A stretch of 44,354 bases of DNA from the sequence record OZ035776.1, one strand, 5' to 3'. The notes below the pieces were generated by a model. It had not been told where the DNA came from. It worked only from the letters and a program-made list of their open reading frames with translations, and did no database searches. Made by a program: the position numbers and the translations under genes. Positions 330 to 31,713 of the stretch are shown one piece after another (the stretch's first letter is position 1; every line of letters starts with the position of its first letter). This DNA is from Vectrevirus LF31P3.

Positions 330-2227
330 TGGCTAAGGCAAGAGAATCACAAGCGGAGGCTCTTGCCAGATGGGAGATGCTACAGGAGTTACAGCAGACC
401 TTTCCTTACACAGCGGAAGGTTTGCTTCTCTTTGCAGATACAGTTATTCATAACTTAATTGCAGGCAACCCTCATCTGATTCGTATGCAGGCGGATATCT
501 TGAAGTTCCTATTTTACGGACACAAGTACCGCCTCATCGAAGCGCCTCGTGGTATCGCTAAGACAACACTATCAGCAATCTATACGGTATTCCGTATTAT
601 TCATGAACCGCATAAGCGTATCATGGTTGTGTCCCAAAACGCCAAGCGAGCAGAGGAAATCGCAGGTTGGGTAGTTAAAATCTTCCGTGGCTTAGACTTT
701 CTTGAGTTTATGCTGCCGGATATCTACGCTGGGGACCGTGCATCCGTTAAGGCGTTTGAGATTCATTACACCCTACGTGGCAGTGATAAGTCTCCTTCTG
801 TATCATGTTACTCAATCGAAGCAGGTATGCAGGGTGCTCGTGCTGATATTATTCTAGCGGATGACGTAGAGTCGATGCAGAATGCTCGTACGGCAGCGGG
901 CCGTGCCTTGCTTGAGGAACTGACTAAGGAGTTTGAATCTATCAACCAGTTTGGGGATATCATTTACCTTGGTACACCTCAGAACGTAAACTCTATCTAC
1001 AACAACCTACCTGCTCGTGGTTACTCTGTTCGTATCTGGACTGCGCGTTACCCTTCAGTAGAGCAAGAGCAATGTTATGGCGACTTCCTTGCACCTATGA
1101 TTGTTCAAGATATGAAGGACAACCCAGCACTTCGCTCAGGGTACGGGTTGGATGGTAATAGTGGTGCACCTTGTGCCCCTGAAATGTATGATGATGAAGT
1201 CCTGATTGAGAAGGAAATCTCTCAGGGTGCTGCTAAGTTCCAGCTTCAGTTCATGCTTAACACTCGCATGATGGATGCTGACAGATACCCATTACGCCTG
1301 AACAATCTAATCTTCACCTCGTTTGGTACAGAGGAAGTCCCTGTGATGCCTACGTGGAGTAATGATTCCATAAACATCATTGGTGATGCACCTAAGTATG
1401 GTAACAAGCCTACGGATTTCATGTACAGACCTGTAGCTCGCCCATACGAATGGGGTGCTGTCTCCCGCAAGATTATGTATATTGACCCTGCGGGTGGTGG
1501 TAAGAACGGAGATGAGACGGGTGTAGCCATCGTATTCCTGCACGGCACATTCATTTATGTGTATCAGTGCTTTGGTGTACCTGGCGGATACCGAGAGTCG
1601 TCCCTGAATCGCATTGTGCAGGCCGCAAAGCAGGCGGGTGTTAAAGAGGTATTCATTGAGAAGAACTTTGGTCATGGCGCGTTTGAGGCGGTAATTAAGC
1701 CGTACTTTGAACGAGAGTGGCCTGTAACTCTGGAAGAGGATTACGCCACCGGACAGAAAGAGTTGCGTATCATTGAGACGCTGGAGCCGCTCATGGCAGC
1801 CCATAGGCTTATCTTCAATGCAGAGATGGTGAAGTCAGACTTTGAGTCGGTACAGCACTATCCGCTTGAACTACGCATGTCCTACAGTCTTTTCAATCAA
1901 ATGTCGAACATAACGATTGAGAAGAACAGCCTCCGGCATGATGACCGCCTAGACGCCCTGTATGGCGCTATACGGCAATTAACTTCTCAGATAGACTATG
2001 ACGAGGTTACACGGATTAATCGCCTCAGAGCGCAGGAGATGCGCGATTACATCCATGCTATGAACACACCTCATCTACGCAGGGCAATGCTATATGGAGA
2101 TTACGGTACTGAGAGAAGAGTGACCAACACTTCCGTAGCGATGCAGCAGCGAGTTTACGGGCAGAACTACCGAAATAAATCGGCAAGCAGAAATACACTT
2201 TCTGCAAGAATTTCAAGGACTTATTAA
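329..2227 (+). CDS. terminase large subunit (T7 gp19-like)
   Basis: About 630 aa; Walker A-like PRGIAKTT; ATG at 329 preceded by aaggagg (the ORF track begins 3 nt earlier at TTG 326); typical position and size. Confidence 0.9.
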   Translation: MAKARESQAEALARWEMLQELQQTFPYTAEGLLLFADTVIHNLIAGNPHLIRMQADILKFLFYGHKYRLIEAPRGIAKTTLSAIYTVFRIIHEPHKRIMVVSQNAKRAEEIAGWVVKIFRGLDFLEFMLPDIYAGDRASVKAFEIHYTLRGSDKSPSVSCYSIEAGMQGARADIILADDVESMQNARTAAGRALLEELTKEFESINQFGDIIYLGTPQNVNSIYNNLPARGYSVRIWTARYPSVEQEQCYGDFLAPMIVQDMKDNPALRSGYGLDGNSGAPCAPEMYDDEVLIEKEISQGAAKFQLQFMLNTRMMDADRYPLRLNNLIFTSFGTEEVPVMPTWSNDSINIIGDAPKYGNKPTDFMYRPVARPYEWGAVSRKIMYIDPAGGGKNGDETGVAIVFLHGTFIYVYQCFGVPGGYRESSLNRIVQAAKQAGVKEVFIEKNFGHGAFEAVIKPYFEREWPVTLEEDYATGQKELRIIETLEPLMAAHRLIFNAEMVKSDFESVQHYPLELRMSYSLFNQMSNITIEKNSLRHDDRLDALYGAIRQLTSQIDYDEVTRINRLRAQEMRDYIHAMNTPHLRRAMLYGDYGTERRVTNTSVAMQQRVYGQNYRNKSASRNTLSARISRTY

Positions 2228-2248
2228 TTACTGGACACTATAGAAGGG
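2226..2248 (+). promoter_or_regulatory. phage RNAP promoter (aattactggacactatagaaggg), +1 G at 2243
   Basis: Match to the recurring 23-bp motif with SP6-type core GACACTATAGAAG; directly after terminase stop (T7 phiOR-like position). Confidence 0.75.
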
Positions 2249-2383
2249 AGGCCCAGATAATAAGATAAATAATAGGTAATATATAGGTTAACCTAGGTTA
2301 TATAGGTATGCCTTAGTATGGGTGTACTCCTGTACACCCTATTCCTTACTACCTTACTATATTTACATAATAGGAGAGAGACA

Positions 2384-2662
2384 ATGGCTAATGATTATAG
2401 TAGTCAACCATTAACAGGTAAGTCTAAGAGAAAGCAGGTACAACCTGTAAGTGAAGAACTAATGCTTCCGGTAATCAAAAAAGAGGAAGCTAGTAAGAAA
2501 AGCAATGTTATTAATGATGCCACCAAATCAGGTAAACAGAAAGGGGCCATGGTGTGCCTTGAAGTGGACGGTGGTGTATTGAAGATTGCTATCGCGGTTG
2601 ATGGCAAAGAAGATTCAGAGTGGAAGTTAGTAACAGTGGAACCAACTGTTACCCCAGTTTAA
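2384..2662 (+). CDS. hypothetical protein, paralog A (SGKQKGAMV motif)
   Basis: ATG at 2384 preceded by aggagagaga; shares the motif block (L/M)PV.KKE...SGKQKGAMV.LE......IA.A with the next gene. Confidence 0.6.
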   Translation: MANDYSSQPLTGKSKRKQVQPVSEELMLPVIKKEEASKKSNVINDATKSGKQKGAMVCLEVDGGVLKIAIAVDGKEDSEWKLVTVEPTVTPV

Positions 2663-2680
2663 GAGAAGGAGGAAGATTAC

Positions 2681-2971
2681 ATGGCTAAATATGGTACTAC
2701 AGGTTCTGTTACTGGTCAGGCTTTTCGAGTAAAAGCAGTACAAACTATTGCAACGGCAATCCCGATGCCTGTTGTTAAAGAAGCAGACCTTAAGAGTAAA
2801 GACCACCCTATCAACATCAAACATTTATCAGGTAAACAGAAAGGTGCAATGGTTGCTCTTGAGAAAGGTGACACAACCCTGCATATTGCTGTTGCACGTG
2901 GCAGTGAACCAACAGACCCTTGGGATGTAACTGGTATGGAAGGGGAAGCTGTTACTCCAGCAGAGGTATAA
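2681..2971 (+). CDS. hypothetical protein, paralog B (SGKQKGAMV motif)
   Basis: ATG preceded by gaaggagg; tandem paralog of 2384..2662. Confidence 0.6.
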   Translation: MAKYGTTGSVTGQAFRVKAVQTIATAIPMPVVKEADLKSKDHPINIKHLSGKQKGAMVALEKGDTTLHIAVARGSEPTDPWDVTGMEGEAVTPAEV

Positions 2972-2973
2972 TA

Positions 2974-3318: not shown

Positions 3319-3426
3319 GTTGTGTTGCATGGTGTGAACGCATGGTTGCTAAGGCTTCAGAGGAAGGCAACTATGAAGATTGGCAGAACTACTCAACTTT
3401 ATTATCTCAATGGAAAGGGAGATGCA

Positions 3427-3892: not shown

Positions 3893-3915
3893 ATTTACTG
3901 GACACTATAGAAGAG
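3893..3915 (+). promoter_or_regulatory. phage RNAP promoter (atttactggacactatagaagag), +1 G at 3910
   Basis: Full match to the most common promoter variant; upstream of the tailspike genes. Confidence 0.8.
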
Positions 3916-3994: not shown

Positions 3995-5887
3995 ATGGCA
4001 AGATTAACTCGCCCTGTTAGTGTATTTAATAGTCTGATGGATATTACTTACCCATGCTCCACTGATGGTGGTAAAGCGGAACTACTACAGGTTATACCCG
4101 GACGTATGTCTGGTGGTGGTATCCTACTTTGGGACGCCAGTATGCCTCAGTCCAATCATAATGGTATTACCATCCTCAGCCCTGAAGCTAAATGGGATGG
4201 TACTCTAGAAGGTTTTAAGGCCTATAGGGAAAGTGGAGGGACTGGCAATGGTTGCTGGGTTCGACCACGCAAAGGTACTGATCTGATGGCATCTTGGGCT
4301 GGTGTTGACACAGACGGGGACTGGATTGCGGATGAGCCACTTATGGCGCTGTGTCAGATTGCACATACACAACGTCGTAATATACGCATAGACTCTGGTG
4401 CTGTCATTCGTTGCGGTTTCACAACTCCGATTTCTCAGCAAGACAAGCACAACATTCTATCTCAAACATCTTTTGTATTACGTGGTTTAAAGAACTTCTC
4501 CATATATGCTGAGCAAGATGCAGAGATAACCACAGACCACCCTGTACATCGTGAGCGTACAGTATTCTTCTTGGACGGTTGCGATAAGGTTACAATTTCT
4601 GGTCTTAAGTTTAATTCTGATTTCAGCGATTATTCTTTCGAACCTAATAGTCCCTATGAGCACCATATCAATGAACACTGGTTAGGTGTAGTTGCAGAGG
4701 CTTGTGGTACTGTTGAGGTTCGCAGATGTAGGTTCAATGCACCTCAGTTTGCTGTAAAGGCCGACTGTTTTAATAGAACAGACGGTAGGTGGAATGACAC
4801 AGTTGCAGTAAAAGATTGTTTCTTCCAGTATGCTACAAACTATTGCTTTTTATCACGTAAGTTACGACATTACATCTTCTCTGATAATGAAGTAAGATTT
4901 AATGGACGTAAGTGGCATACATATGGAGAGGCTTGTGCCCCTACTACCTATACTGAGAATCAGATTATCACTCGTAACCGTTTCATAGATCAGATTGCTG
5001 GTCAAAGCTGTATAACTCCTGGTTCTTATGCTAAGCAAGTACTTATTTCAGATAACTTCTGTCAACGTAGTAATGGTATCTTTGTTGAGATAGGCAGTGC
5101 TAGTAATATTAATATTCTTAACAACGTCTCCAAATCTACAGGTGAACGCATCGTCCACGGAAGTGATAAGTATGCAGGAACTACACACATCCTTCTAGTA
5201 TCTGGGGCAGTTGATGATGAACCTGCTGGTGGGCTAAGTAATATCTTGATTCAAGGTAATAACTTCCAAGGCGGTGGTTATGCTTTACAAGAGTACAATA
5301 CAGGCATTCCTATTCGTCGCGGGTTGGATATTCTTAATAACCACCTTGTAGACTGTATTCCACCAGCCTGTACTAACCAATCCTTTAAGTATATTAGGGT
5401 AGAAGGTAACTACATCCAAGCACCGGATGATTACCCAGATATGACTATTGGAGGTCAACACTCTATTATCAAGGATAATGTCCTTATCGGTGTGCGATTG
5501 AGGGCTAGAGATTTAGGTTATACTGTTGTAGGGTTAAAAGTAATAGGTAATACTTTTACTGCAAATAGTGTAGCATCTAAGTTCCCTGCACTGATAGACT
5601 ACACTGATCTAGAAGATCTTGAAGCTTATGACAACGCAGCAGGTATTCAGGCATCTTATGATAGCTTTATAGTAGCACCTGATAACTGTAATAAAATTAG
5701 CTTTATGAAAGTCGGTATGGTTGAAGGTTTTACACAGACACCAGCAGTGGTTTATGGTAGTAAGTTGCAAGGCCAGAAGGCAGGTGCGATTGTTGGCAAT
5801 AGTGCACCTGGGTCTGTACATGGTTGTGCTGCATTCGTGAGTACTTCTAGTGGTGGTTGGGGTTTTATAAACTACGTTCCCGCATAA
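3995..5887 (+). CDS. tailspike protein 1 (probable polysaccharide depolymerase, beta-helix type)
   Basis: 630 aa after terminase/lysis genes as in SP6-like phages; ATG at 3995 preceded by aggagg; Asn/Gly/Ser-rich repetitive sequence consistent with a parallel beta-helix. No named catalytic motif recognised. Confidence 0.55.
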   Translation: MARLTRPVSVFNSLMDITYPCSTDGGKAELLQVIPGRMSGGGILLWDASMPQSNHNGITILSPEAKWDGTLEGFKAYRESGGTGNGCWVRPRKGTDLMASWAGVDTDGDWIADEPLMALCQIAHTQRRNIRIDSGAVIRCGFTTPISQQDKHNILSQTSFVLRGLKNFSIYAEQDAEITTDHPVHRERTVFFLDGCDKVTISGLKFNSDFSDYSFEPNSPYEHHINEHWLGVVAEACGTVEVRRCRFNAPQFAVKADCFNRTDGRWNDTVAVKDCFFQYATNYCFLSRKLRHYIFSDNEVRFNGRKWHTYGEACAPTTYTENQIITRNRFIDQIAGQSCITPGSYAKQVLISDNFCQRSNGIFVEIGSASNINILNNVSKSTGERIVHGSDKYAGTTHILLVSGAVDDEPAGGLSNILIQGNNFQGGGYALQEYNTGIPIRRGLDILNNHLVDCIPPACTNQSFKYIRVEGNYIQAPDDYPDMTIGGQHSIIKDNVLIGVRLRARDLGYTVVGLKVIGNTFTANSVASKFPALIDYTDLEDLEAYDNAAGIQASYDSFIVAPDNCNKISFMKVGMVEGFTQTPAVVYGSKLQGQKAGAIVGNSAPGSVHGCAAFVSTSSGGWGFINYVPA

Positions 5888-8280: not shown

Positions 8281-9250
8281 TAAGCAGATTAATATCTTAG
8301 TGTACACAAGGGCAGACTTATGCTAGCTCACAGCACACCTATGAGTGCCGCTCTGGAGTCTATGACTTGTTCCCTGACTATCTAGGTTTGCTCTTAGTGT
8401 ATTCCAAAGGAGGTAACATGCAAGAGGAGAATTGGGATGTGTAATGTTGGATATGGAGAAGGTTGAACCTTAGTGTTGTACAAGGATTAACCAAAGTCAA
8501 AATTTTGATATAGGCGTGTGTCAGCTCTCTCGCCCTCGCCCTCGCCGGGTTGCCCCCATATGGGGTCGGTCGGCGGTTGACCTAGGAATTGGGCTGGGCG
8601 GGTCCGTCTTCAACCTGCTGCCGCAGGAAGCTCGACGGGTGGGCGAGGGCTTGCCTTGTACTCGCTTAGTGGTACACAAGGAGAGCGCCTAGGAAGCGCT
8701 AGGGCGCGCCTTAGTATTAGACAAGGTGATTGCCTTAGTTCAACCGCTTAGGGCTTACACGGGCCGTTTTAGGGCCACTCCTGAGCGTTTGACAGGGTGT
8801 GAGGGTGTGGGCTATCTGTTTGTTTCGTCGCTGGCGCTCCTCACTTCGTTTCGCTAGCGCTCCACTCACAAGCCTGACGTGTACCTTAGTTACTACCTTA
8901 TGCTATTACTTGATGGATAGCTTAGGTTAAACTTAGTGGACTACCTTAGTTAAAGCCTTAGTGCTTATCTTAGTAATAGCTTAGTAGTGTACCTTAGTAA
9001 GTCTTAGTGTCTTCTCTTAGTGATTGCACATGCAAGCATGTAAGATGCCATTAGGTCGCGGTCGGTAGACCGCTAAAGAGAGAGAATAGTAATAAGATGC
9101 AGTAGGAGGGACACCAGAAACCTAGCCAACCTAGCCTATCCTAGCTCTGTATCTATTGCTTTTCCTTAGTCTCACATGTTAGACAACCTAGGTTTACCTT
9201 AGTAGTTGTGACATGTATCACATAAATAATCTATCTTAGTGAAACTTAGT
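8280..9250. repeat. terminal-region short-repeat arrays (CTTAGT core, about 20 copies; densest 8880..9030)
   Basis: Repeated (c)cttagt(g/a) units in an ORF-free region between the last late gene and the first early promoter; analogous to repeat arrays near T7-group genome ends. Confidence 0.6.
8526..8650. repeat. GC-rich inverted-repeat element
   Basis: cgccctcgccctcgcc (8531..8546) is mirrored by gggcgagggc (8641..8650) about 100 nt away; internal palindrome ccccatatgggg; markedly more GC-rich than surrounding sequence. Confidence 0.5.
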
Positions 9251-10957: not shown

Positions 10958-11071
10958 ATGGAAAAGCTATACAACTTCATCTTTTCAGACGGTGTAACCC
11001 TGAAGTGTTCCCTGCGTTTCGCACAAATTCGTGAGGAAGTACTAGGCACTACATACAAACTATTTAGCTGA
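10958..11071 (+). CDS. small early ORF (37 aa)
   Basis: aggaag 7 nt upstream of ATG. Confidence 0.3.
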   Translation: MEKLYNFIFSDGVTLKCSLRFAQIREEVLGTTYKLFS

Positions 11072-11084
11072 CACTATAAGAGAA
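11062..11084 (+). promoter_or_regulatory. variant phage promoter-like site (atttagctgacactataAgag)
   Basis: Close match to the promoter motif but A instead of G at +1; possibly the first, weak phage promoter. Confidence 0.4.
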
Positions 11085-11375: not shown

Positions 11376-11438
11376 CTAACCTATAGCCTACCTGAGTGGG
11401 CTATGTGATATTTACTTACACTATATAAGGTGATTACT

Positions 11439-12386: not shown

Positions 12387-15014
12387 ATGCAAGACCTACA
12401 CGCTATTCAACTTCAACTTGAAGAAGAAATGTTTAACGGCGGTATCCGTCGCTTTGAAGCGGACCAACAACGCCAGATTGCATCCGGTAATGAATCAGAC
12501 ACGGCATGGAATCGCCGCTTATTGTCCGAGTTAATCGCGCCAATGGCTGAAGGTATTCAGGCATACAAGGAAGAATATGAAGGCAAGCGAGGCCGTGCAC
12601 CACGTGCATTGGCTTTCATTAACTGCGTAGAAAATGAAGTGGCAGCGTATATCACGATGAAGATCGTAATGGATATGCTTAACACTGATGTAACCTTGCA
12701 AGCTATCGCTATGAATGTAGCTGACCGCATTGAGGACCAAGTACGTTTTAGCAAGCTGGAAGGTCACGCCGCCAAATACTTTGAGAAAGTTAAGAAGTCA
12801 CTTAAGGCAAGTAAGACTAAATCATATCGCCATGCGCACAACGTAGCGGTCGTGGCTGAGAAGTCAGTAGCTGACCGTGACGCTGATTTCTCTCGCTGGG
12901 AGGCGTGGCCTAAAGATACCTTGCTACAAATTGGTATGACCTTGCTAGAAATACTGGAAAATAGTGTATTCTTCAATGGTCAGCCTGTCTTTCTTCGCAC
13001 CTTGCGCACTAATGGTGGCAAGCATGGCGTTTACTACTTACAGACTAGCGAACACGTGGGTGAATGGATAACTGCATTTAAAGAGCACGTAGCTCAGCTC
13101 AGTCCTGCCTATGCACCTTGCGTTATTCCTCCGCGTCCGTGGGTTTCTCCGTTTAATGGTGGCTTCCATACTGAGAAAGTAGCAAGCCGTATTCGTCTGG
13201 TAAAAGGCAACCGCGAGCACGTCCGTAAGCTGACCAAAAAGCAAATGCCAGCGGTTTACAAGGCTGTTAACGCCTTACAAGCTACTAAGTGGCAGGTTAA
13301 CAAGGAAGTATTGCAGGTAGTAGAAGATGTTATTCGTCTAGACCTCGGTTATGGTGTACCTTCCTTTAAGCCGCTCATTGACCGCGAGAACAAACCAGCT
13401 AACCCTGTACCTCTTGAGTTCCAACACCTGCGAGGCCGTGAACTGAAAGAGATGCTTACGCCAGAACAGTGGCAAGCCTTCATCAACTGGAAAGGTGAAT
13501 GTACCAAGCTGTATACCGCTGAAACTAAGCGCGGCAGCAAGTCGGCGGCAACCGTTCGCATGGTCGGGCAGGCCCGTAAATACAGCCAGTTTGACGCAAT
13601 ATACTTCGTGTATGCACTGGACAGCCGCTCACGCGTTTATGCGCAATCTAGCACACTCTCACCGCAATCAAATGACTTAGGCAAGGCGTTACTACGCTTT
13701 ACCGAAGGGCAGACCATAAACAGCACTGAGGCGCTTAAGTGGTTTTTGGTGAACGGGGCGAATAACTGGGGTTGGGATAAGAAAACTTTTGACGTGCGTA
13801 CCGCTAACGTGCTGGATGGCGAATTTCAAGACATGTGCCGCGACATTGCAGCCGACCCGCTGACCTTCACTCAATGGGTAAATGCCGACTCCCCTTATGG
13901 CTTCCTTGCATGGTGCTTTGAATATGCGCGTTATCTGGATGCACTGGATGAAGGCACGCAAGACCAATTCATGACGCACCTACCCGTCCATCAAGACGGC
14001 AGTTGCTCTGGTATCCAGCACTATAGCGCGATGTTACGCGATGAAGTAGGTGCGAAAGCAGTAAACCTTAAGCCTTCTGACTCCCCTCAAGATATTTATG
14101 GCGCGGTTGCGCAGGTTGTTATCCAGAAGAATTACGCCTACATGAATGCAGACGATGCAGAGACTTTCACATCTGGAAGCGTCACACTTACAGGTGCAGA
14201 ACTGCGTAGCATGGCTAGTGCGTGGGATATGATAGGAATCACTCGCGGATTGACCAAAAAGCCCGTAATGACACTACCTTATGGCAGCACACGTCTAACC
14301 TGCCGTGAATCAGTGATTGATTATATCGTTGATTTGGAAGAAAAAGAGGCCCAACGAGCTATTGCGGAAGGGCGTACCGCCAATCCTGTACATCCTTTTG
14401 ATAATGACCGTAAGGACAGCCTGACACCTAGCGCAGCTTATAACTATATGACAGCTTTAATCTGGCCTTCTATTTCGGAAGTGGTTAAAGCTCCTATAGT
14501 GGCAATGAAAATGATTCGTCAGCTTGCCCGTTTCGCAGCTAAAAGGAATGAAGGCTTAGAGTATACCTTGCCTACTGGCTTCATCTTGCAACAAAAGATA
14601 ATGGCGACAGATATGCTCCGCGTATCTACTTGCTTGATGGGAGAAATCAAGATGAGTCTACAGATTGAAACGGACGTAGTGGATGAAACGGCTATGATGG
14701 GCGCTGCTGCTCCTAACTTTGTGCATGGTCATGATGCCAGCCACCTTATCTTAACAGTCTGCGACCTTGTTGATAAAGGGATTACATCTATCGCAGTCAT
14801 TCATGATTCTTTCGGTACTCACGCAGGCCGTACAGCCGATCTACGTGATAGTCTAAGGGCAGAAATGGTGAAGATGTATCAAGGCCGTAATGCCCTGCAA
14901 AGCCTGTTAGATGAGCATGAAGAACGCTGGTTAGTAGACACCGGAATCCAAGTGCCAGAGCAAGGAGAGTTTGACCTTAACGAAATCTTAGTATCTGACT
15001 ATTGCTTCGCATAA
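12387..15014 (+). CDS. single-subunit DNA-dependent RNA polymerase (T7/SP6 type)
   Basis: 875 aa; recognisable phage RNAP motifs ([22 protein letters not shown]); N-terminus resembles SP6 RNAP as recalled. Confidence 0.95.
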
Positions 15015-15021
15015 TATTAAT

Positions 15022-15056
15022 AGGCCATTCCTTCGGGAGTGGCCTTTTCTTTTACC
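15022..15056 (+). terminator. rho-independent terminator (9-bp stem, UUCG tetraloop, U-run); early terminator
   Basis: ggccattcc-ttcg-ggagtggcc followed by ttttctttt immediately after the RNAP gene. Confidence 0.75.
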
Positions 15057-15095: not shown

Positions 15096-15118
15096 TGTGA
15101 GACTTATTTACCGGACAC
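15096..15118 (+). promoter_or_regulatory. phage RNAP promoter (atttaccggacactataggatag), +1 G at 15113
   Basis: CCGG variant of the promoter motif; first of two tandem promoters between RNAP and gene 1.1-like ORF. Confidence 0.7.
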
Positions 15119-15269
15119 TATAGGATAGCCGTCGGAGACGGGAAAGAAAGGGAAGATAAAGGATATAAAGGAAGTAATAGGTATTAAAGGTTATATAGGT
15201 TTACCTAGGAATACCTATTACCTTCTTCCTTCCTCTTATTTCTACTTAGAGGAAGGGCAGACCTAAGTT

Positions 15270-15290: not shown

Positions 15291-15313
15291 ATTTACCGGA
15301 CAGTATAGATAAG
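15291..15313 (+). promoter_or_regulatory. variant phage promoter-like site (atttaccggacaGtatagataag)
   Basis: One mismatch in the conserved core (cagtatag); second tandem promoter. Confidence 0.5.
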
Positions 15314-15470: not shown

Positions 15471-17459
15471 ATGGCTATTATTCAGAATGTACCGTGTCCT
15501 GCCTGTCAAAAGAATGGACATGATATTACTGGTAACCATCTTATGATATTTGAGGATGGCGCTGGTTACTGTAACCGTGGTCACTTCCATGATAACGGTA
15601 AACCTTATTACCACAAGCCGGAAGGTGGCATCGAGATAACCGAGTTACCTATTACTGGCAATATCAAATATACACCTTCTCAATTCAAAGAAATGGAGAA
15701 GGAAGGGAAGATAAGTGACCCTAAGCTACGCGCCATCGCACTTGGTGGTATGCGTATGAAAGACCGTTGGGAGGTTATGAATGAGCAAGAAAGGGCAGAC
15801 CAAGAAGCAGAGTGGAAACTTGATGTTGAATGGTTCCTCACGCTTAAGCGTAAGAACCTTGTATCCCGTCACATTCGAGGTGACATCGCAGCAATGTACG
15901 ATGTGCGCGTTGGACACGATGAAGAGGGAAGAGTCAACCGTCACTATTATCCACGATATGAAAAGGGTGTGCTTGTTGGAGCAAAATGCCGGACGTTGCC
16001 GAAGGATTTTAAGTTCGGACACCTAGGTAAACTCTTTGGTATGCAAGATCTTTTCGGTATGAACACTTTGTCTCACGTGTTAGACAAGGGGAGACGAAAG
16101 GATTGCTTGCTTATTGTAGGCGGTGAACTTGATGCACTAGCAGCGCAGCAGATGCTCCTTGATTCTGCCAAAGGTACTAAGTGGGAGGGTCAGCCATACC
16201 ATGTATGGTCTGTCAACAAAGGCGAGTCTTGCCTTGAAGAGATAGTGCAGAACCGTGAGCATATCGCCCAATTCAAGAAGATTATTTGGGGCTTCGATGG
16301 GGATGAGGTAGGGCAGAAGCAGAACCAGCAAGCGGCTCGCCTGTTTCCTGGCAAATCCTATATCCTTGAGTACCCTTCTGGTTGCAAAGATGCCAACAAG
16401 GCATTGATGGCTGGCAAGGCTAAAGAGTTTGTTGATGCATGGTTTAATGCCAAGTCATCTGATGAAGTCTTTGGTAGCCAGATTAAATCTATCGCATCTC
16501 AAAGGGATAAGCTCAAGGCTGCACGTCCAGAGCAAGGACTATCATGGCCTTGGCCTAAGCTGAACAAGGTAACGCTAGGTATTCGTAAGAACCAACTTAT
16601 CATTGTAGGTGCAGGATCTGGTGTAGGTAAGACTGAGTTCCTTCGTGAAGTAGTTAAGCACCTCATTGAAGAACACGGTGAATCTGTAGGCATCATTTCT
16701 ACAGAAGACCCGATGGTCAAGGTTTCCCGTGCTTTTATCGGCAAGTGGATTGATAAGCGTATTGAGTTACCGCCAACCAACGACCCGAAAGAAGATGGAT
16801 ACCGTGAGGTGTTCGACTACACCGAGGAAGAAGCTAACGCCGCCATTGATTATGTAGCTGATACAGGTAAGCTGTTTGTAGCTGACCTAGAGGGTGACTA
16901 TTCGATGGAAAAGGTAGAGCAAACTTGCCTAGAGTTTGAGGCTATGGGCATTTCTAATATCATCATTGATAACTTAACGGGGATTAAATTAGATGAGCGT
17001 GCTTTTGGTGGGAAGGTTGGTGCACTTGATGAATGCGTCAAGCGGATTGGTACTATCAAAGACCGACACCCGGTTACTATATTCCTTGTATCACACCTTA
17101 CACGTCCTCCGGCAAACCGTACCCAACACGAAGAAGGTGGCGAGGTTATCCTTTCTGACTTCCGAGGCTCAGGCGCTATCGGATTCTGGGCATCTTACGC
17201 CTTGGGGATTGAGCGTAATACAAGAGCTGAAACGCTTGACGAAAGGACTACCACGTACATCTCATGTGTCAAAGACCGCGACCAAGGTATCTACACTGGA
17301 ACCAAGGTCATGCTTAAGGGTGACATTCAAACCGGACGTTTAATGGAACCACAAGCCCGTACTAAGTCATTTGATACAGGTGAAGCAAGGCAACAAGAAG
17401 TACCAGATTTACCGGACACTATAGAAGAGACTAACTTCGATGAAGAAAGTGAGTTCTGA
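15471..17459 (+). CDS. DNA primase/helicase (T7 gp4-like)
   Basis: N-terminal zinc ribbon CPACQ...CNRGH; Walker A GAGSGVGKT; 662 aa. Confidence 0.95.
   Translation: MAIIQNVPCPACQKNGHDITGNHLMIFEDGAGYCNRGHFHDNGKPYYHKPEGGIEITELPITGNIKYTPSQFKEMEKEGKISDPKLRAIALGGMRMKDRWEVMNEQERADQEAEWKLDVEWFLTLKRKNLVSRHIRGDIAAMYDVRVGHDEEGRVNRHYYPRYEKGVLVGAKCRTLPKDFKFGHLGKLFGMQDLFGMNTLSHVLDKGRRKDCLLIVGGELDALAAQQMLLDSAKGTKWEGQPYHVWSVNKGESCLEEIVQNREHIAQFKKIIWGFDGDEVGQKQNQQAARLFPGKSYILEYPSGCKDANKALMAGKAKEFVDAWFNAKSSDEVFGSQIKSIASQRDKLKAARPEQGLSWPWPKLNKVTLGIRKNQLIIVGAGSGVGKTEFLREVVKHLIEEHGESVGIISTEDPMVKVSRAFIGKWIDKRIELPPTNDPKEDGYREVFDYTEEEANAAIDYVADTGKLFVADLEGDYSMEKVEQTCLEFEAMGISNIIIDNLTGIKLDERAFGGKVGALDECVKRIGTIKDRHPVTIFLVSHLTRPPANRTQHEEGGEVILSDFRGSGAIGFWASYALGIERNTRAETLDERTTTYISCVKDRDQGIYTGTKVMLKGDIQTGRLMEPQARTKSFDTGEARQQEVPDLPDTIEETNFDEESEF
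17407..17429 (+). promoter_or_regulatory. phage RNAP promoter (atttaccggacactatagaagag), +1 G at 17424
   Basis: Lies inside the 3' end of the primase/helicase gene. Confidence 0.7.
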
Positions 17460-17535: not shown

Positions 17536-18219
17536 ATGTGCAAATTAGTATTAAATGAAGGTGATAAAGTTCGTAATATTAATACACAATCTGAACGTAG
17601 AGGCTGGATTGGTTATGTAGGTGTCATTTCAGAGAACTATTATACTGTTATGTACACTAATGGTCATGCTCAAAGCTATCTTAAGCGATTAGCCCATAAA
17701 TATCTTGAGAAAATTGTAGAAGCAGACAACCAATGCAAGTGTATACATGATGAACTTTGTTATAAGTGTGCTCGCCAGATGCTTAAGAATTTCCTAGCTC
17801 CTCTTTATTATGGTGCTGGTCCTCAAACACTAGCAGAGTACATGGCAGAAAAGAAAACCACACTCAAGAAAGAGCGTCGCAATGTAATCACTGGTAAGAC
17901 TCAAAGTGAAATGATTAAGCAATGTGGCACTGCACTAGGTGTTACGCAGTTTAACACTCGTGCTCTTGGTAAATCCACAGGACAAGCTATGGTAAAGATT
18001 GGCGAAGCCATGATGCATCCAAATGTACCTGTACGAATCATGGATGTTGACCATGCAATCACAGAGCATGGCACACCACGGCGTGTAGCTAATAATCATT
18101 TCGCCGACACTATAGAAGGTATTATTCGTAAGCAAGGTTTGAAGGGTCTTCACATCTTAAATGGTGAAGAATTACTGTACCTACCTATCGTTACTGAAGA
18201 AACATACGTGAATATCTAA
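17536..18219 (+). CDS. hypothetical protein (227 aa, Cys-rich, visibly AT-rich codon usage)
   Basis: ggagat before ATG; Cys cluster CKCIHDELCYKC; no family recognised. Confidence 0.6.
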   Translation: MCKLVLNEGDKVRNINTQSERRGWIGYVGVISENYYTVMYTNGHAQSYLKRLAHKYLEKIVEADNQCKCIHDELCYKCARQMLKNFLAPLYYGAGPQTLAEYMAEKKTTLKKERRNVITGKTQSEMIKQCGTALGVTQFNTRALGKSTGQAMVKIGEAMMHPNVPVRIMDVDHAITEHGTPRRVANNHFADTIEGIIRKQGLKGLHILNGEELLYLPIVTEETYVNI

Positions 18220-21486: not shown

Positions 21487-21747
21487 ATGATTAAATACAC
21501 TGCTTATCAGTTAACTAAAGACCGTAAGATAGGTATTGAGGTTAAGGCTTGGGAGCGAGGTCATATCTCTGGAGTAATAGAGGTGCGTTCCAATGAAGGT
21601 ATGATGATTAGAAGACACTTTAGTTTCGCTAAATCTACTTGTAAGCATTTAACAGAGGAACAATTCTTACATCATATTATTAATAATATTAAAGCTATCC
21701 AACCTTATGCCAAGCAAGTTGTAGGTAATGTCACAGTAGTGCATTGA
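21487..21747 (+). CDS. hypothetical protein (86 aa)
   Basis: taaggaa before ATG; AT-rich. Confidence 0.5.
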   Translation: MIKYTAYQLTKDRKIGIEVKAWERGHISGVIEVRSNEGMMIRRHFSFAKSTCKHLTEEQFLHHIINNIKAIQPYAKQVVGNVTVVH

Positions 21748-21769
21748 TTTACTGGACACTATAGAAGGA
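21747..21769 (+). promoter_or_regulatory. phage RNAP promoter (atttactggacactatagaagga), +1 G at 21764
   Basis: Full motif match. Confidence 0.8.
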
Positions 21770-21832: not shown

Positions 21833-22210
21833 ATGTCTATGGTAACTACTCTGGTATTTGTAGCTCAATACTTTCGTGGTCTGGCTAATAAGTTCAAGTC
21901 CAAGGCTATCAAAGCTATTGAGTCTCGCATCGAGGCAGTACAGGCAGAGCAAGTTAAAGTTGAAGAACATCGTAGTTCTCAAATGATTGACTGCCATAAC
22001 CGCTACTATGAATCTCGTGATGACCTTAATGCACGCCAAGTCAAAGAGGTTGAAGAGATGCTGGCACGTCACCAGCAAGAGCGCGACAGCCTGAAAGCTG
22101 AATTTGAAGAGAACAAGGCATCCATCGCCCTTGTACATCAAGCCGCATCTGACAGCCTGAAGAAAGAGATTGTTATGCTGGAAATTGAGTTAGACAACCT
22201 GACCAAATAA
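21833..22210 (+). CDS. hypothetical coiled-coil protein (125 aa)
   Basis: aggag before ATG. Confidence 0.55.
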   Translation: MSMVTTLVFVAQYFRGLANKFKSKAIKAIESRIEAVQAEQVKVEEHRSSQMIDCHNRYYESRDDLNARQVKEVEEMLARHQQERDSLKAEFEENKASIALVHQAASDSLKKEIVMLEIELDNLTK

Positions 22211-22231
22211 TTACTGGACACTATAGAACAA
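22209..22231 (+). promoter_or_regulatory. phage RNAP promoter (aattactggacactatagaacaa), +1 G at 22226
   Basis: Motif match; overlaps the stop of the preceding gene. Confidence 0.7.
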
Positions 22232-23103: not shown

Positions 23104-23322
23104 ATGAAAGTACAAATCATAACTCTGCATTGCAAGAAAGGAATCACCACGCTTGGCGGCAATACTTTCCACTCCTTCTCCGAGGGGGAGGTTTATTCTG
23201 ACCTGCACTACATCTGGCGCGATGGACAGCACGTGGTGAACTACAGCGACCCAGCTACGGGGAAACGCCACGGCGTATCGCTTCCGGCGCATGACATTGC
23301 TCAGGTGAACACAGTTTTATAA
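23104..23322 (+). CDS. hypothetical protein (72 aa)
   Basis: taaggaga before ATG. Confidence 0.5.
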   Translation: MKVQIITLHCKKGITTLGGNTFHSFSEGEVYSDLHYIWRDGQHVVNYSDPATGKRHGVSLPAHDIAQVNTVL

Positions 23323-23354: not shown

Positions 23355-23377
23355 ATTTACTGGACACTATAGAAGAG
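23355..23377 (+). promoter_or_regulatory. phage RNAP promoter (atttactggacactatagaagag), +1 G at 23372
   Basis: Full motif match. Confidence 0.8.
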
Positions 23378-23798: not shown

Positions 23799-23804
23799 TT
23801 GATG

Positions 23805-23837
23805 CCCTGTCTGCCTTAGTGTAGGCAGGGTCTTTTG
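23805..23837 (+). terminator. terminator-like hairpin followed by tctttt
   Basis: ccctgtctgc ... gtaggcaggg stem with wobble pairs. Confidence 0.45.
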
Positions 23838-25495: not shown

Positions 25496-26495
25496 GCTTC
25501 GCAGCTTGTACAAAGACTCCGAGGTACTTGATGCAATCGAGCAAGCTACCGACGAGAAAGGTAATGTTAATTACAATGAGATGGCACGTGTATTATCGTG
25601 TCACCCTGTGGGTAAGAAGATTACCCGCCAGTTGGCTCGATACTGGCATGGTCAATTCAAGAAGACCAAGAAGAATGGTGATTATTACCAGACCCTTCTG
25701 CAAGAAGATAAGCGTATCAAAGAAGAGCGTAAGCTCAGGACTCCTGACCGCTACGAGGATTTGGCTATTGTACCATTGCCTGACTCGCCTCATCGAAGTG
25801 TACTGGTAATCCCTGATACTCATGCACCTTATGAGCATCCAGATACCTTAGAGTTCCTTGCAGCAGTCGCGGCACGTTACCGTCCAGATACAGTGGTTCA
25901 CTTAGGAGATGAGGCAGATAAACACGCCCTCTCCTTCCATGACTCTGACCCGAATCTGGATAGTGCTGGCATGGAGCTAGAGAAGGCTCGTGTCTTCATG
26001 CACAAGTTGCACAAGATGTTCCCTGTGATGCGCCTGTGTCATTCTAATCACGGCTCTATGCACTTCCGTAAGGCAAGCGCCAAGGGTATTCCAGTGCAAT
26101 ATCTTCGCACCTACCGTGAAGTCTTCTTCCCAAATGGAGGTGGCGACCAGTGGGATTGGCAACATACGCACGTCCTTGAGTTGCCGAATGGTGAACAAGT
26201 GGCATTCAAGCATCAACCTGCTGGCTCTGTCCTAGCAGATGCAGCGCATGAGCGTATGAACCTTGTGTGTGGTCACTTGCACGGTAAGATGTCTGTGGAG
26301 TACGCACGTAATACACATGAACAGTATTGGGCTGTGCAAGGTGGCTGCTTAATTGATGAGTCATCCCGTGCATTTGCCTATGGTCGTGAGTCTAAATACA
26401 AGCCAGCATTAGGTTGTGTGGTCATTCTGGAGGGTGTGCCTCACATCGTCCCGATGCAAACCAATAGCGACAACCGTTGGATTGGCAAGATTTAG
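25488..26495 (+). CDS. calcineurin-like metallophosphoesterase
   Basis: Motifs IPDTHAPY (DxH), LGDEAD (GDxxD), CHSNHG (NH); TTG start 6 nt after aaggagg preferred over in-frame ATG at 25464 which lacks an SD. Confidence 0.7.
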   Translation: MGKLRSLYKDSEVLDAIEQATDEKGNVNYNEMARVLSCHPVGKKITRQLARYWHGQFKKTKKNGDYYQTLLQEDKRIKEERKLRTPDRYEDLAIVPLPDSPHRSVLVIPDTHAPYEHPDTLEFLAAVAARYRPDTVVHLGDEADKHALSFHDSDPNLDSAGMELEKARVFMHKLHKMFPVMRLCHSNHGSMHFRKASAKGIPVQYLRTYREVFFPNGGGDQWDWQHTHVLELPNGEQVAFKHQPAGSVLADAAHERMNLVCGHLHGKMSVEYARNTHEQYWAVQGGCLIDESSRAFAYGRESKYKPALGCVVILEGVPHIVPMQTNSDNRWIGKI

Positions 26496-26512
26496 TTGAC
26501 ACTATAGAACAA
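26490..26512 (+). promoter_or_regulatory. phage RNAP promoter (atttagttgacactatagaacaa), +1 G at 26507
   Basis: Closest of all to the canonical SP6 promoter as recalled (atttagGtgacactatag). Confidence 0.7.
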
Positions 26513-27099: not shown

Positions 27100-27100
27100 T

Positions 27101-28402: not shown

Positions 28403-28406
28403 AGGA

Positions 28407-28993: not shown

Positions 28994-29002
28994 GGAGATA
29001 AC

Positions 29003-29212: not shown

Positions 29213-29213
29213 T

Positions 29214-30764: not shown

Positions 30765-31684
30765 TGTCTTTCTCATTTACTGAACCGTCAACCACTCACC
30801 CTACTACTGAAGAGGGTCCGGTAGAAACCAAGGAGGTAACAACTGATGCTGCTACTACTGATGCTACTGCTGACGCTGGCACTGCTGTACAAGATGACAA
30901 TGCTGGTGCACAACCTACTGAAGACACCGGAGGAGAAGCTTCTGGACAGCCTTCAGAAAAAGGAGACAATGACGGAGAGAATGGTGAATCTAAGCCAGAT
31001 GATACCGCGACCGACACTGAGGAAGTGCAATACTTCTTCGGAGAACATGAAGTAACAATAGACATCCCACAGGATGTAACTGACAGCCTTAAAGAGAAAG
31101 GCATTGATGCCAAGCAGGTTGCCAAGGAACTATATTCCAAAGGTGGCAAGTTTGAACTGTCAGATGCAACCAAGCAGAAATTGTATGATGCTTTTGGCAA
31201 GTTTGCGGTAGATGCTTACCTGTCAGGTCTTAAGGCTCAAAATGAAGCCTTCTTCCTGAAAGAAGCCAACGCAGCTAAAGAGTTGGAAGCAGCTAACACC
31301 CAACGCTTCTCTGATGTTTCTAAGGAAATTGGTGGCGAAGAAGGTTGGTCCCGTCTTGAGGAGTGGGCGCTTGAAACGCTATCCGATGACGAACTCACGG
31401 CATTCAATGCTGTGATGGAGTCTGGCAACCAGTACCTCCAGCAGTACGCTGTGCGTGAACTGGAGAGCCGCCGTAAGGCTGCACAGGGTGATGATAGGCC
31501 ATCCCTGATTGAGCCATCAGCACCTGCTAAGGCTAATGAAGAGAATGGCCCACTGACGCGAGATCAGTACGTTCAAGCAATCGCAACTCTTAGCCAGAAG
31601 TACGGCAATGACCGTAAAGCTATGGCAGAAGCTCAGGCTAAACTGGACGCCCGTCGCCGTGCTGGCATGGCTCGCGGTATCTAA
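30764..31684 (+). CDS. capsid assembly (scaffolding) protein
   Basis: 306 aa, very acidic and Ala/Glu-rich, between portal and capsid; aaggagg before ATG. Confidence 0.75.
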   Translation: MSFSFTEPSTTHPTTEEGPVETKEVTTDAATTDATADAGTAVQDDNAGAQPTEDTGGEASGQPSEKGDNDGENGESKPDDTATDTEEVQYFFGEHEVTIDIPQDVTDSLKEKGIDAKQVAKELYSKGGKFELSDATKQKLYDAFGKFAVDAYLSGLKAQNEAFFLKEANAAKELEAANTQRFSDVSKEIGGEEGWSRLEEWALETLSDDELTAFNAVMESGNQYLQQYAVRELESRRKAAQGDDRPSLIEPSAPAKANEENGPLTRDQYVQAIATLSQKYGNDRKAMAEAQAKLDARRRAGMARGI

Positions 31685-31690
31685 TTCAGT

Positions 31691-31713
31691 ATTTACTGGA
31701 CACTATAGAAGGG
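31691..31713 (+). promoter_or_regulatory. phage RNAP promoter (atttactggacactatagaaggg), +1 G at 31708
   Basis: Full motif, followed by gggaga; upstream of capsid gene. Confidence 0.85.

What the first reader, a model, noticed from the sequence alone, without database searches (positions are those of the whole stretch)
2226..31713. Promoter set has an SP6-type core but a distinct upstream specificity region, in several sub-classes
Eleven promoter-like sites share GACACTATAG(A/G)A but vary at about -8 to -12: ACTGG (2243, 3910, 21764, 22226, 23372, 31708), ACCGG (15113, 15308, 17424), AGTTG (26507) and AGCTG (11079, with A at +1). The canonical SP6 promoter as I recall it has AGGTG there. The variants may grade promoter strength or timing, or indicate a shifted polymerase specificity relative to SP6.
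Basis: partly seen in the sequence, partly recalled or inferred. Interest (0 to 1): 0.4.

Follow-up and report, generated by a model that had tools for sequence, protein, structure and literature searches.

The report
K1-5/K1E-type phage RNA polymerase promoters
The window is a whole genome of a K1-5/K1E-like coliphage, and the flagged sites are its 13 promoters for the phage's own RNA polymerase, a set found almost base for base in phage K1-5 (sequenced 2004), so the finding is real but ordinary.

Summary
The window holds 13 phage-polymerase promoters, not 11. All are on the + strand. All score at least 27 bits with a matrix built from the 13 sites themselves, and nothing else reaches 8 bits. 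Two of its listed sites (11079, 15308) do not match the stated core.

The window is a circularly permuted Vectrevirus genome. These promoters differ from SP6 at -12 to -10 (CTG/CCG versus GGT). The polymerase specificity loop co-varies: Ser747 here and Arg in SP6, at the position of T7 Asn748. Published work already separates K1E-type from SP6-type polymerase/promoter pairs. A polymerase 99% identical to this one has been tested in vitro on TATTTACTGGACACTATAG; it used the SP6 promoter about equally well.

One small point may be new. The five leftmost promoters in natural genome order all have C at -11 and the eight later ones all have T, which resembles T7 class II/III promoters. Whether this grades strength is inferred, not shown.

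Verdict: already known, low interest.

The parts
11062..11084 (+). Promoter (-17..+6), +1 = 11079, ATTTAGCTGACACTATA|AGAGAA. It has A at +1 and lies upstream of gp5, gp6 and the RNA polymerase gene. It is the first phage promoter in natural genome order and has C at -11.
   Evidence: 29.0 bits. Identical in K1-5 at 2031 and conserved in 10 Vectrevirus. A-start counterparts occur in SP6 (2121), Kenya-K31 (2203), Klebsiella HY (9588), Pectobacterium PP1 (2710) and pKV-BS375 (45482).
12387..15014 (+). Single-subunit T7-family RNA polymerase gene (875 aa), the enzyme that reads these promoters.
   Evidence: 99% identical to K1-5 gp7, 98% to K1E, 86% to SP6, 35% to T7. Hits T7 RNAP structures at E=1e-112. 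864/874 identical to the biochemically tested 'No. 2049'.
14598..14687 (+). Specificity loop of the polymerase (residues 738-767, [30 protein letters not shown]). Ser747 (14625-14627) aligns with T7 Asn748, Lys755 with Arg756 and Ser757 with Gln758.
   Evidence: MAFFT and HMMER alignments to T7 RNAP agree. SP6-type phages have RVRTCLMGDIKMS, with Arg at the Asn748 position.
15022..15045 (+). Strong hairpin plus T-run terminator just after the polymerase gene, marking the end of the early unit.
   Evidence: 10 pairs, 6 GC, tail TTTCTTTT. A terminator is annotated after the RNA polymerase gene, at the corresponding position, in relative R4596.
15106..15128 (+). Promoter, +1 = 15123, ATTTACCGGACACTATA|GGATAG (ACCGG class). 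It is the first of a tandem pair after the polymerase gene.
   Evidence: 33.7 bits. Identical in K1-5 at 6037. ACCGG in all 10 Vectrevirus.
15291..15313 (+). Promoter, +1 = 15308, ATTTACCGGACAGTATA|GATAAG (ACCGG class, G at -5). It lies upstream of gp8 and the primase/helicase gene.
   Evidence: 29.4 bits. Identical in K1-5 at 6221. Conserved, including the -5 G, in 9 of 10 Vectrevirus.
17407..17429 (+). Promoter, +1 = 17424, ATTTACCGGACACTATA|GAAGAG (ACCGG class). It is embedded in the 3' end of the primase/helicase ORF, upstream of gp10.
   Evidence: 38.9 bits. ACCGG in all 10 Vectrevirus.
18098..18120 (+). Promoter, +1 = 18115, ATTTCGCCGACACTATA|GAAGGT. It is the most deviant upstream half, embedded in the gp10 ORF upstream of gp10.5 to DNA polymerase.
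   Evidence: 27.3 bits. K1-5 9027 has ATTTTGCCG. Conserved in 10 Vectrevirus.
21747..21769 (+). Promoter, +1 = 21764, ATTTACTGGACACTATA|GAAGGA (consensus ACTGG class), upstream of gp15.
   Evidence: 38.0 bits. K1-5 12597. ACCGG in PDP21P3 only.
22209..22231 (+). Promoter, +1 = 22226, AATTACTGGACACTATA|GAACAA, upstream of gp16.
   Evidence: 35.4 bits. K1-5 13369 has ACTAG. SP6 13022 has AATTAGGTG with the same GAACAATAG start.
23355..23377 (+). Promoter, +1 = 23372, ATTTACTGGACACTATA|GAAGAG (exact consensus), upstream of gp18.
   Evidence: 39.6 bits. Identical in all 10 Vectrevirus.
23804..23831 (+). Strong terminator-like hairpin after gp18.
   Evidence: 11 pairs, tail CTTTTG. A terminator is annotated after the corresponding gene in R4596.
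26490..26512 (+). Promoter, +1 = 26507, ATTTAGTTGACACTATA|GAACAA (AGTTG class), upstream of gp23 (nucleotide kinase) and the ligase gene.
   Evidence: 33.2 bits. AGTTG in all 10 Vectrevirus; SP6-type phages have AAGTG here.
31691..31713 (+). Promoter, +1 = 31708, ATTTACTGGACACTATA|GAAGGG, upstream of the major capsid gene.
   Evidence: 38.4 bits. Identical in all 10 Vectrevirus. In KMB14 the orthologous site at 23186 precedes the annotated major capsid protein.
32980..33006 (+). Strong terminator after the major capsid gene, in the position of T7's T-phi.
   Evidence: 11 pairs, tail TATTTTTG. A terminator is annotated after the capsid gene in R4596.
121..143 (+). Promoter, +1 = 138, CAATACTGGACACTATA|GAAGAA. 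It is embedded in the small-terminase ORF (gp39), upstream of the large terminase gene.
   Evidence: 30.8 bits. Present in all 10 Vectrevirus. Absent at the orthologous place in SP6 and GRNsp03.
2226..2248 (+). Promoter, +1 = 2243, AATTACTGGACACTATA|GAAGGG, after the large terminase gene and upstream of gp41-45 (the lysis region).
   Evidence: 36.8 bits. K1E has ACCGG here.
3893..3915 (+). Promoter, +1 = 3910, ATTTACTGGACACTATA|GAAGAG (exact consensus), upstream of the two tailspike genes.
   Evidence: 39.6 bits. Vectrevirus NIC06P3 has SP6-type AGGTG at this site.

Best explanation
The 13 sites are the promoters read by the phage's own single-subunit (T7-family) RNA polymerase, encoded at 12387-15014. 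The genome is a K1-5/K1E-like Vectrevirus, and this is the standard promoter set of that group.

Each promoter is a 23-bp element from -17 to +6. The AT-rich ATTTA at -17..-13 and the GACACTATA|G core are shared with SP6. Positions -12..-10 are the group-specific part: CTG or CCG here, GGT in SP6.

By homology with T7 promoter complexes, this segment is read in the major groove by the polymerase's specificity loop. That loop carries Ser747 here where SP6-type enzymes carry Arg, at the position of T7 Asn748. This is the likely main cause of the changed preference.

In natural genome order, host polymerase presumably makes the early transcripts as in T7 (not examined here). The phage polymerase then fires from these promoters to transcribe replication genes, then structural, packaging, lysis and tailspike genes.

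The within-genome variants are fixed per site. The five leftmost promoters are off-consensus with C at -11: one before the polymerase gene, a tandem pair after it, one before gp10 and one before the DNA polymerase cluster. The eight later ones have T at -11, and most are at or near consensus. This most likely gives weaker middle promoters and stronger late promoters, as with T7 class II and class III.

Shown: the sites, their significance, their orthology and conservation, and the loop substitution. From the literature: the ACTGG promoter works with a 99%-identical polymerase. Inferred: that Ser747 reads -12/-11, and that the variants differ in strength.
For: - Motif statistics: 11 exact core matches against 0.01 expected. 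13 sites score at least 27 bits and nothing else reaches 8 bits, all on the coding strand.
- Identity of the genome: up to 96% nucleotide identity to Vectrevirus records.
- K1-5 carries the same 13 sites one-to-one, nearly all identical over -20..+8.
- Across 10 Vectrevirus genomes, positions -17..+3 differ at 0.85% against 5.9% in the flanks, and the variant is kept at each site.
- The polymerase is 99% identical to K1-5 gp7 and 86% to SP6.
- Two alignment methods both place Ser747 at T7 Asn748; SP6-type enzymes have Arg there.
- Across the 10 polymerase/promoter types sampled (13 phages outside Vectrevirus), Arg or Lys at this residue goes with consensus G at -12 in eight phages and Ser goes with C at -12 in two types (Vectrevirus, Erwinia S2). 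Vibrio VP505, with Phe and A, fits neither.
- Literature: K1E and SP6 form separate polymerase/promoter specificity clusters (PMC11880802). K1E polymerase with a K1E capsid-gene promoter drives expression (PMC6412113). Polymerase 'No. 2049', 864/874 identical to this one, transcribes from TATTTACTGGACACTATAG... in vitro (PMC13029058).
- Position split: -11 is C at 11079, 15123, 15308, 17424 and 18115, and T at the other eight, in natural order from the physical left end near 8530. One such arrangement out of 1287, judged post hoc.
- SP6-type phages also have off-consensus promoters at the same left-hand sites.
Against: - No transcription data exist for this genome or for the ACCGG, AGTTG, AGCTG or CGCCG variants.
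- The specificity shift is not exclusive. No. 2049 gave about 3.5% of the T7 reference signal on the SP6 promoter against about 2% on its own consensus (PMC13029058). That enzyme has Gly instead of Ser at 757, and the initial transcribed sequences may have differed between the two templates.
- NIC06P3 carries AGGTG at the tailspike promoter although its loop is K1-5-type.
- T and C at -11 interchange in K1E (ortholog of 2243) and PDP21P3 (ortholog of 21764). The -11 base may therefore matter little.
- A simple Arg-reads-G(-11) rule fails in Proteus PM93 (Arg with A at -11) and Klebsiella pKV-BS375 (Arg with T at -11).
- No T7-lysozyme-type regulator was looked for here, so a class II to class III switch mechanism cannot be assumed.
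Confidence: 0.9

Rival explanations
1. The within-genome variants are tolerated degeneracy without regulatory meaning. The K1-5-type polymerase is permissive at -12..-10, so the variants are inherited neutral states that look conserved only because the genomes are closely related.
For: T/C swaps at -11 occur in K1E and PDP21P3. A natural AGGTG promoter occurs in NIC06P3. A 99%-identical polymerase uses the SP6 promoter about as well as its own consensus (PMC13029058).
Against: Promoter positions change 7-fold less than the flanks across 10 genomes, and the variant bases themselves are kept. The -11 C/T split follows genome order exactly. SP6-type phages, Lelliottia phD2B and Pectobacterium PP1 also have off-consensus promoters at the same left-hand sites.
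Confidence: 0.3
2. The most deviant sites owe their sequence to overlapping coding constraints, not to tuning. Promoters 138, 17424 and 18115 lie inside ORFs (gp39, gp9, gp10) and must also encode protein.
For: ORF map: 30..329, 15471..17459 and 17536..18219 contain these promoters. The two lowest-scoring upstream halves, CAATA at 138 and ATTTCGCC at 18115, are both intragenic.
Against: 17424 is intragenic yet scores near consensus. The deviant sites 11079, 15123, 15308 and 26507 are intergenic. This rival therefore explains at most two sites.
Confidence: 0.2
3. The sub-classes are read by different enzymes or by a modified form of the polymerase, for example through a phage-encoded specificity factor, giving truly separate regulons.
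For: Only indirect evidence. There is a clean positional split of -11 C versus T. A conserved 16-bp palindrome abuts two of the three ACCGG promoters.
Against: There is a single polymerase gene in the genome. No precedent exists in the T7 family for promoter-class-specific factors acting through -11. The classes differ by one transition that flips freely in relatives.
Confidence: 0.03

Closest known systems
Phage K1-5 and K1E promoters for the phage RNA polymerase (Vectrevirus; genomes AY370674 and AM084415)
   Same: The same 13 sites in the same gene context, nearly all identical over -20..+8, with the same variant at each site. The polymerase is 98-99% identical with an identical specificity loop.
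   Different: Single-base differences only. K1-5 has GATACTATA at the ortholog of 17424, ACTAG at the ortholog of 22226 and ATTTTGCC at the ortholog of 18115. K1E has ACCGG at the ortholog of 2243.
Canonical SP6 promoters (Zindervirus; ATTTAGGTGACACTATAGAAG)
   Same: Same length, same ATTTA at -17..-13, same GACACTATA|GAAG core, and orthologous positions for 12 of the 13 sites. Both have an A-start promoter before the polymerase gene and off-consensus promoters in the left part of the genome.
   Different: -12..-10 is GGT in SP6 and CTG/CCG (or GTT, GCT, GCC) here. -11 is always G in SP6 and always a pyrimidine here. The loop has Arg in SP6 and Ser747 here. Promoter 138 has no SP6 counterpart.
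T7 class II and class III promoters
   Same: Several copies of one 23-bp element read by one phage polymerase. Off-consensus copies serve the replication genes on the left and consensus copies serve the late genes. There is a tandem pair just after the polymerase gene (like T7 phi1.1A/B) and a terminator after the capsid gene (like T-phi). The T7 side of this comparison is from my own knowledge of T7.
   Different: The sequence differs. There is a phage promoter upstream of the polymerase gene, which T7 lacks. Strength differences and any lysozyme-type switch are unproven here.
T7 versus T3 specificity switch (Asn748/Asp at the specificity loop reading -10/-11)
   Same: A change at the aligned loop residue (Ser747 versus Arg) accompanies a change in the -12..-10 promoter bases between close relatives.
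   Different: Causality has been shown by mutagenesis for T7/T3 (from my own knowledge) but not for SP6/K1-5. The loop is 3 residues shorter here, and PMC11880802 reports that K1E and SP6 do not obey the T7-derived rules.

Membership tests
K1-5/K1E-type (Vectrevirus) phage-polymerase promoters | Conserved ~23-bp element ATTTAC(T/C)GGACACTATA|GAAG present in many copies, all in the direction of transcription | tested here: met
   13 sites, all on the + strand, each at least 27 bits with nothing else above 8 bits.
K1-5/K1E-type (Vectrevirus) phage-polymerase promoters | Site-by-site orthology with the promoter-like sites of the K1-5 and K1E genomes | tested here: met
   All 13 sites align to K1-5 and K1E within conserved flanks.
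K1-5/K1E-type (Vectrevirus) phage-polymerase promoters | The genome encodes the cognate K1-5-type single-subunit polymerase with specificity loop [13 protein letters not shown] | tested here: met
   ORF 12387-15014 is 99% identical to K1-5 gp7, and the loop is identical in 11 Vectrevirus.
K1-5/K1E-type (Vectrevirus) phage-polymerase promoters | Transcription initiates at the G after TATA with the cognate polymerase | not testable with these tools
   Literature only. A polymerase 864/874 identical is active on TATTTACTGGACACTATAG... in vitro (PMC13029058). K1E polymerase with a K1E promoter is active in cells (PMC6412113). The other variants have not been tested.
Canonical SP6 promoter (SP6 RNA polymerase specificity) | GGT at -12..-10 (ATTTAGGTGACACTATAG) | tested here: not met
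   0 of 13 sites. -11 is C or T at every site. The closest site is 26507, with one mismatch to the 20-mer.
Canonical SP6 promoter (SP6 RNA polymerase specificity) | Cognate polymerase with the SP6-type loop RVRTCLMGDIKMS | tested here: not met
   The window has Ser at the Arg position, plus five further loop differences.
T7-like class II / class III promoter organisation | Off-consensus promoters before DNA-metabolism genes and consensus promoters before late genes | tested here: met
   The five leftmost promoters have C at -11, and four of them carry further deviations. The exact or near consensus is found at 21764, 23372, 31708, 2243 and 3910. This is a post hoc pattern.
T7-like class II / class III promoter organisation | Measured difference in strength, and differential inhibition by a phage lysozyme-type regulator | not tested
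   No activity data exist, and no search was made for a polymerase-binding regulator.

The most novel reading that the evidence does not exclude
The strict split of -11 C (the five promoters from the polymerase operon to the DNA polymerase cluster) versus -11 T (the eight later promoters) marks two kinetic promoter classes for one polymerase. The conserved 16-bp palindrome GTCTCACATGTGAGAC abuts the tandem ACCGG promoters and recurs 8 times. It could be an operator or RNA element that adds a second layer of control at the middle genes. That would be a regulatory layer not known to me for SP6-group phages.
Probability: 0.12. Interest if true: 0.4.

Novelty: already known. Interest (0 to 1): 0.1.

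Why it matters
It matters little beyond annotation. It confirms that this genome uses the known K1-5/K1E-type transcription system. It also gives a clean 13-site promoter map, which is useful for annotating Vectrevirus genomes; the Vectrevirus records fetched here carry no promoter features. For polymerase engineering there are modest leads. One is the natural Ser/Arg difference at the Asn748 position, which goes with C/G at -12 across the Molineuxvirinae lineages sampled. Another is the evidence that the K1-5-type enzyme tolerates the SP6 promoter. If the -11 C/T split proves functional, it would extend the T7 class II/III logic to the SP6 group.

Tried and rejected
- The primary descriptions could not be read. 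Scholl et al. 2004 (J Mol Biol) was not requested, since the reference lists give no PMC id for it. Look-ups of Dobbins et al. 2004 (PMC374404), Chen & Schneider 2005 (PMC1275584), Scholl et al. 2002 (PMC135020) and Shin et al. 2000 (PMC18112) returned 'not held'. What those papers say about K1-5 promoters, or about SP6 polymerase on -12..-10 mutants, is therefore not cited.
- Supplements of PMC6412113 and PMC11880802 are not held.
- A full-text search for ATTTACTGGACACTATAGAAG found nothing. The shorter ACTGGACACTATAG found one paper, PMC13029058.
- A simple rule 'Arg at the Asn748 position reads G at -11' was considered and rejected. Proteus PM93 and Klebsiella pKV-BS375 have Arg with A or T at -11. 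The association with -12 holds better across the sample, but the lineages are not independent.
- I looked for a second copy of the terminal repeat and found none. The window is a circular permutation with one repeat copy, and the physical left end is near 8530.
- The sigma-70 scan was not informative: counts did not exceed shuffles.
- No solved structure of an SP6-group polymerase exists to check the loop contacts.
- PMC6129954 was checked for SP6 promoter mutant strengths and gave nothing usable.


Full report
**What the window is.** Megablast of the first 25 kb finds 157 phage records. The best are Vectrevirus genomes (T147P1 at 96% identity; also K1E, AAPEc6 and others). The window (44,354 bp) is a circular permutation of such a genome. 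K1-5's left end maps to about window 8530, and only one copy of the terminal repeat is present. All large ORFs are on the + strand. ORF 12387-15014 is a T7-family single-subunit RNA polymerase. It is 99% identical to K1-5 gp7, 98% to K1E, 86% to SP6 and 35% to T7.

**Checking the observation.** GACACTATAGRA occurs 11 times, all on the + strand, against 0.01 expected. Allowing mismatches and using the upstream context gives 13 sites, with +1 at 138, 2243, 3910, 11079, 15123, 15308, 17424, 18115, 21764, 22226, 23372, 26507 and 31708. A matrix built from these 13 sites scores each of them at 27-40 bits, and no other position on either strand reaches 8 bits. This shows a clean gap, although the matrix is self-derived.

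- It omits 138 and 18115.
- It gives 15113 for 15123.
- It includes 15308 (GACAGTATAGAT) and 11079 (GACACTATAAGA), which do not fit the stated shared core.

The pentamers at -13..-9 are ACTGG x7, ACCGG x3, AGTTG, AGCTG and CGCCG. Variation is confined to -12 (C10/G3), -11 (T8/C5) and -10 (G10/T2/C1). Position -9 and the whole stretch -8..-1 are invariant apart from one G at -5. The recalled SP6 consensus AGGTG is correct.

**Relatives.**
- K1-5 (AY370674) has the same 13 sites one-to-one, and nearly all are identical over -20..+8.
- I aligned 300-400-bp windows around each site to 10 Vectrevirus genomes: K1-5, K1E, T147P1, KMB14, R4596, T145P2, PhiNW-E1, NIC06P3, PDP21P3 and PDP21P6. Every site is present in every genome, and the variant is kept at each site with few exceptions.
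- Over -17..+3 the difference rate is 0.85% (22/2600), against 5.9% (1776/30101) in the flanks. The promoters, variant bases included, are therefore under purifying selection.
- The exceptions are K1E with ACCGG at the ortholog of 2243, PDP21P3 with ACCGG at the ortholog of 21764 and ATCTG at that of 11079, K1-5 with ACTAG at the ortholog of 22226, and R4596 with TGCAG at that of 18115. Most relatives, K1-5 included, have TGCCG rather than the window's CGCCG at the ortholog of 18115.
- NIC06P3 has SP6-type AGGTG at the ortholog of 3910.
- The SP6-type phages (SP6, GRNsp03, Kenya-K31, Klebsiella HY) have orthologous promoters at 12 of the 13 places, with GGT, GGG, AGT, CGT, AGG, GGA or TGT at -12..-10 and G at -11 in all of them. 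Site 138 has no SP6 counterpart.

**The polymerase side.** MAFFT and HMMER both align the window's [13 protein letters not shown] with T7 R746-L-N748-LMFLGQF-R756-L-Q758. This gives Arg745=R746, Ser747=N748, Lys755=R756 and Ser757=Q758. All 11 Vectrevirus enzymes share this loop. SP6, GRNsp03, Kenya-K31 and Klebsiella HY have RVRTCLMGDIKMS, with Arg at the N748 position. The two loops differ at six positions (D742E, S747R, E753D, I760V, V764I, T768A, window residue first). Only position 747 aligns with a T7 base-contacting residue; that Asn748, Arg756 and Gln758 contact bases is from my own knowledge of the T7 promoter complexes.

De novo promoter finding in more distant relatives gave these consensus sequences:

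| Phage | Residue at N748 position | Promoter consensus |
|---|---|---|
| Proteus PM93 | Arg | AATTAGAGACCACTATAG |
| Klebsiella pKV-BS375 | Arg | TAATAGTGGCGAGTATAG |
| Lelliottia phD2B | Arg | AATTAGGGGCTACTATAG |
| Pectobacterium PP1 | Lys | AATTAGGGCGGACTATAG |
| Erwinia S2 | Ser | AATAACCACCCAGTATAG |
| Vibrio VP505 | Phe | AATTAACCTACCCTATAG |

Arg or Lys goes with consensus G at -12 in eight phages, and Ser goes with C at -12 in two polymerase types (Vectrevirus, Erwinia S2). Vibrio VP505, with Phe and A at -12, fits neither. This is suggestive co-variation, but the lineages are related and the sample is small. A rule tying Arg to G at -11 fails in PM93 and pKV. No structure of an SP6-group polymerase is available.

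**What is already published.**
- PMC11880802 (NAR 2025) mined polymerase/promoter pairs from phage genomes. It places K1E and SP6 in separate specificity clusters defined by the residues at N748/R756/Q758 and five promoter bases. It notes that both deviate from T7-derived rules.
- PMC6412113 (NAR 2019) uses K1E and K1-5 polymerases with their capsid-gene promoters.
- PMC13029058 (Microorganisms 2026) characterises polymerase 'No. 2049', whose printed sequence is 864/874 identical to the window's enzyme. The only loop difference is S757G.
- That paper's working promoter is TATTTACTGGACACTATAGGAGGA. The enzyme gave about 2% of the T7 reference signal on its own consensus and 3.5% on the SP6 promoter. 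Changes at +2 and +5 raised output up to 10.6%.
- The ACTGG promoter is thus experimentally validated for an almost identical enzyme. That enzyme is not orthogonal to the SP6 promoter.
- NIC06P3's natural AGGTG tailspike promoter sits in an otherwise Vectrevirus-like upstream flank, with an unrelated gene downstream. This fits the same tolerance, and it suggests that the conserved core serves as a recombination joint for tailspike cassettes.

**The sub-classes.** The natural order from the left end is 11079, 15123, 15308, 17424, 18115 | 21764, 22226, 23372, 26507, 31708, 138, 2243, 3910. Position -11 is C in the first five and T in the last eight. That is one arrangement out of 1287, though the pattern was noticed post hoc.

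The first five promoters serve gp5-gp6-polymerase, gp8 and primase/helicase, gp10, and gp10.5 to DNA polymerase. Four of them carry further deviations: A at +1, GGATAG, G at -5, and ATTTCGCC. The later group includes the exact consensus ATTTACTGGACACTATAGAAGAG at 23372 and 3910, and near-consensus sites before gp15, the capsid gene and the lysis region. The gene assignments come from the orthologous KMB14 and K1E annotations.

SP6-type phages, Lelliottia phD2B and Pectobacterium PP1 also show off-consensus promoters at the same left-hand sites. Strong + strand terminators follow the polymerase gene (15022-15045), gp18 (23804-23831) and the capsid gene (32980-33006). This layout mirrors T7's class II and class III promoters and its TE and T-phi terminators. 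Graded strength is therefore the most economical reading, but nothing measured supports it yet.

Part of the deviation is probably due to coding overlap. Sites 138, 17424 and 18115 lie inside ORFs, and 138 and 18115 have the two weakest upstream halves. The free T/C swaps at -11 in K1E and PDP21P3 argue that the effect of -11, if any, is modest.

**Verdict.** It is the standard, already described promoter set of K1-5/K1E-like phages, together with the known polymerase-loop difference from SP6. The only possibly unreported details are the strict -11 split by genome position, the Ser/Arg to C/G(-12) association across genera, and the palindrome noted in passing. Interest is low.

Noticed in passing
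window 9169, 15088, 15270, 16070, 17481, 18625, 23324, 39878 (16 bp each): A perfect 16-bp palindrome, GTCTCACATGTGAGAC, occurs 8 times (5 perfect copies; 0.18 expected). Two copies end 2 and 5 bp upstream of the -17 edge of the tandem ACCGG promoters 15123 and 15308, and one ends 15 bp upstream of promoter 23372. Three copies (17481, 18625, 39878) have flanks that extend the stem to 13 bp (-18 to -20 kcal/mol, z -4.6 to -6.0) in intergenic spacers. K1-5, K1E, T147P1, KMB14, R4596 and NIC06P3 hold 6-8 copies each, in the same order along the genome. SP6, GRNsp03, PM93 and pKV-BS375 have none, and Erwinia S2 has degenerate copies. No paper in the library contains the string. It could be an operator or an RNA hairpin.
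   Followed up: partly
L010 (Vectrevirus NIC06P3, OZ035778) about 4575-4597; ortholog of window 3893-3915: The tailspike promoter is the canonical SP6 type (ATTTAGGTGACACTATAGAAGAG) in a genome whose polymerase loop is K1-5-type. The upstream flank is 91% identical to the window, and similarity stops about 40 bp downstream of +1. This suggests a recombination joint at the promoter for tailspike cassette exchange, and tolerance of AGGTG by the K1-5-type enzyme.
   Followed up: partly
window 11062-11084; SP6 (L002) 2121; L017 2203; L019 9588; L021 2710; L015 45482: A phage promoter with A at +1 (TATA|AGAG or AGAT) sits upstream of the gp5-gp6-polymerase genes. It is conserved from Vectrevirus and SP6-type phages to Pectobacterium PP1 and Klebsiella pKV-BS375. 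This implies positive feedback on the polymerase gene through an unusual start base.
   Followed up: partly
window 121-143: Promoter 138 lies inside the small-terminase ORF. It is present in all Vectrevirus checked, but the orthologous SP6 and GRNsp03 sequence (CTGCAATCCTAGCTGCGGTAGAAGAAGAT) is not a promoter. The difference may be a lineage-specific gain in Vectrevirus or a loss in the SP6 lineage.
   Followed up: partly
window about 8477-8814: The window is a circular permutation that starts in gene 38/39. K1-5's terminal repeat and physical ends map to about 8477-8814, and only one repeat copy is present.
   Followed up: yes
window 11409-11431: A degenerate promoter-like sequence, ATATTTACTTACACTATATAAGG (T at -9 and T at +1), lies just after a hairpin (11382-11405) and just before gp6. 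It scores below 8 bits with the 13-site matrix and may be a decayed or very weak site.
   Followed up: no
polymerase loops and promoters of L002, L013-L021 compared with window 14598-14687: Across the Molineuxvirinae-like lineages sampled, Arg or Lys at the T7-Asn748 position goes with G at promoter -12 and Ser goes with C at -12. The -9..-5 core also changes genus by genus (GACAC, ACCAC, GCGAG, GCTAC, CGGAC, CCCAG).
   Followed up: partly
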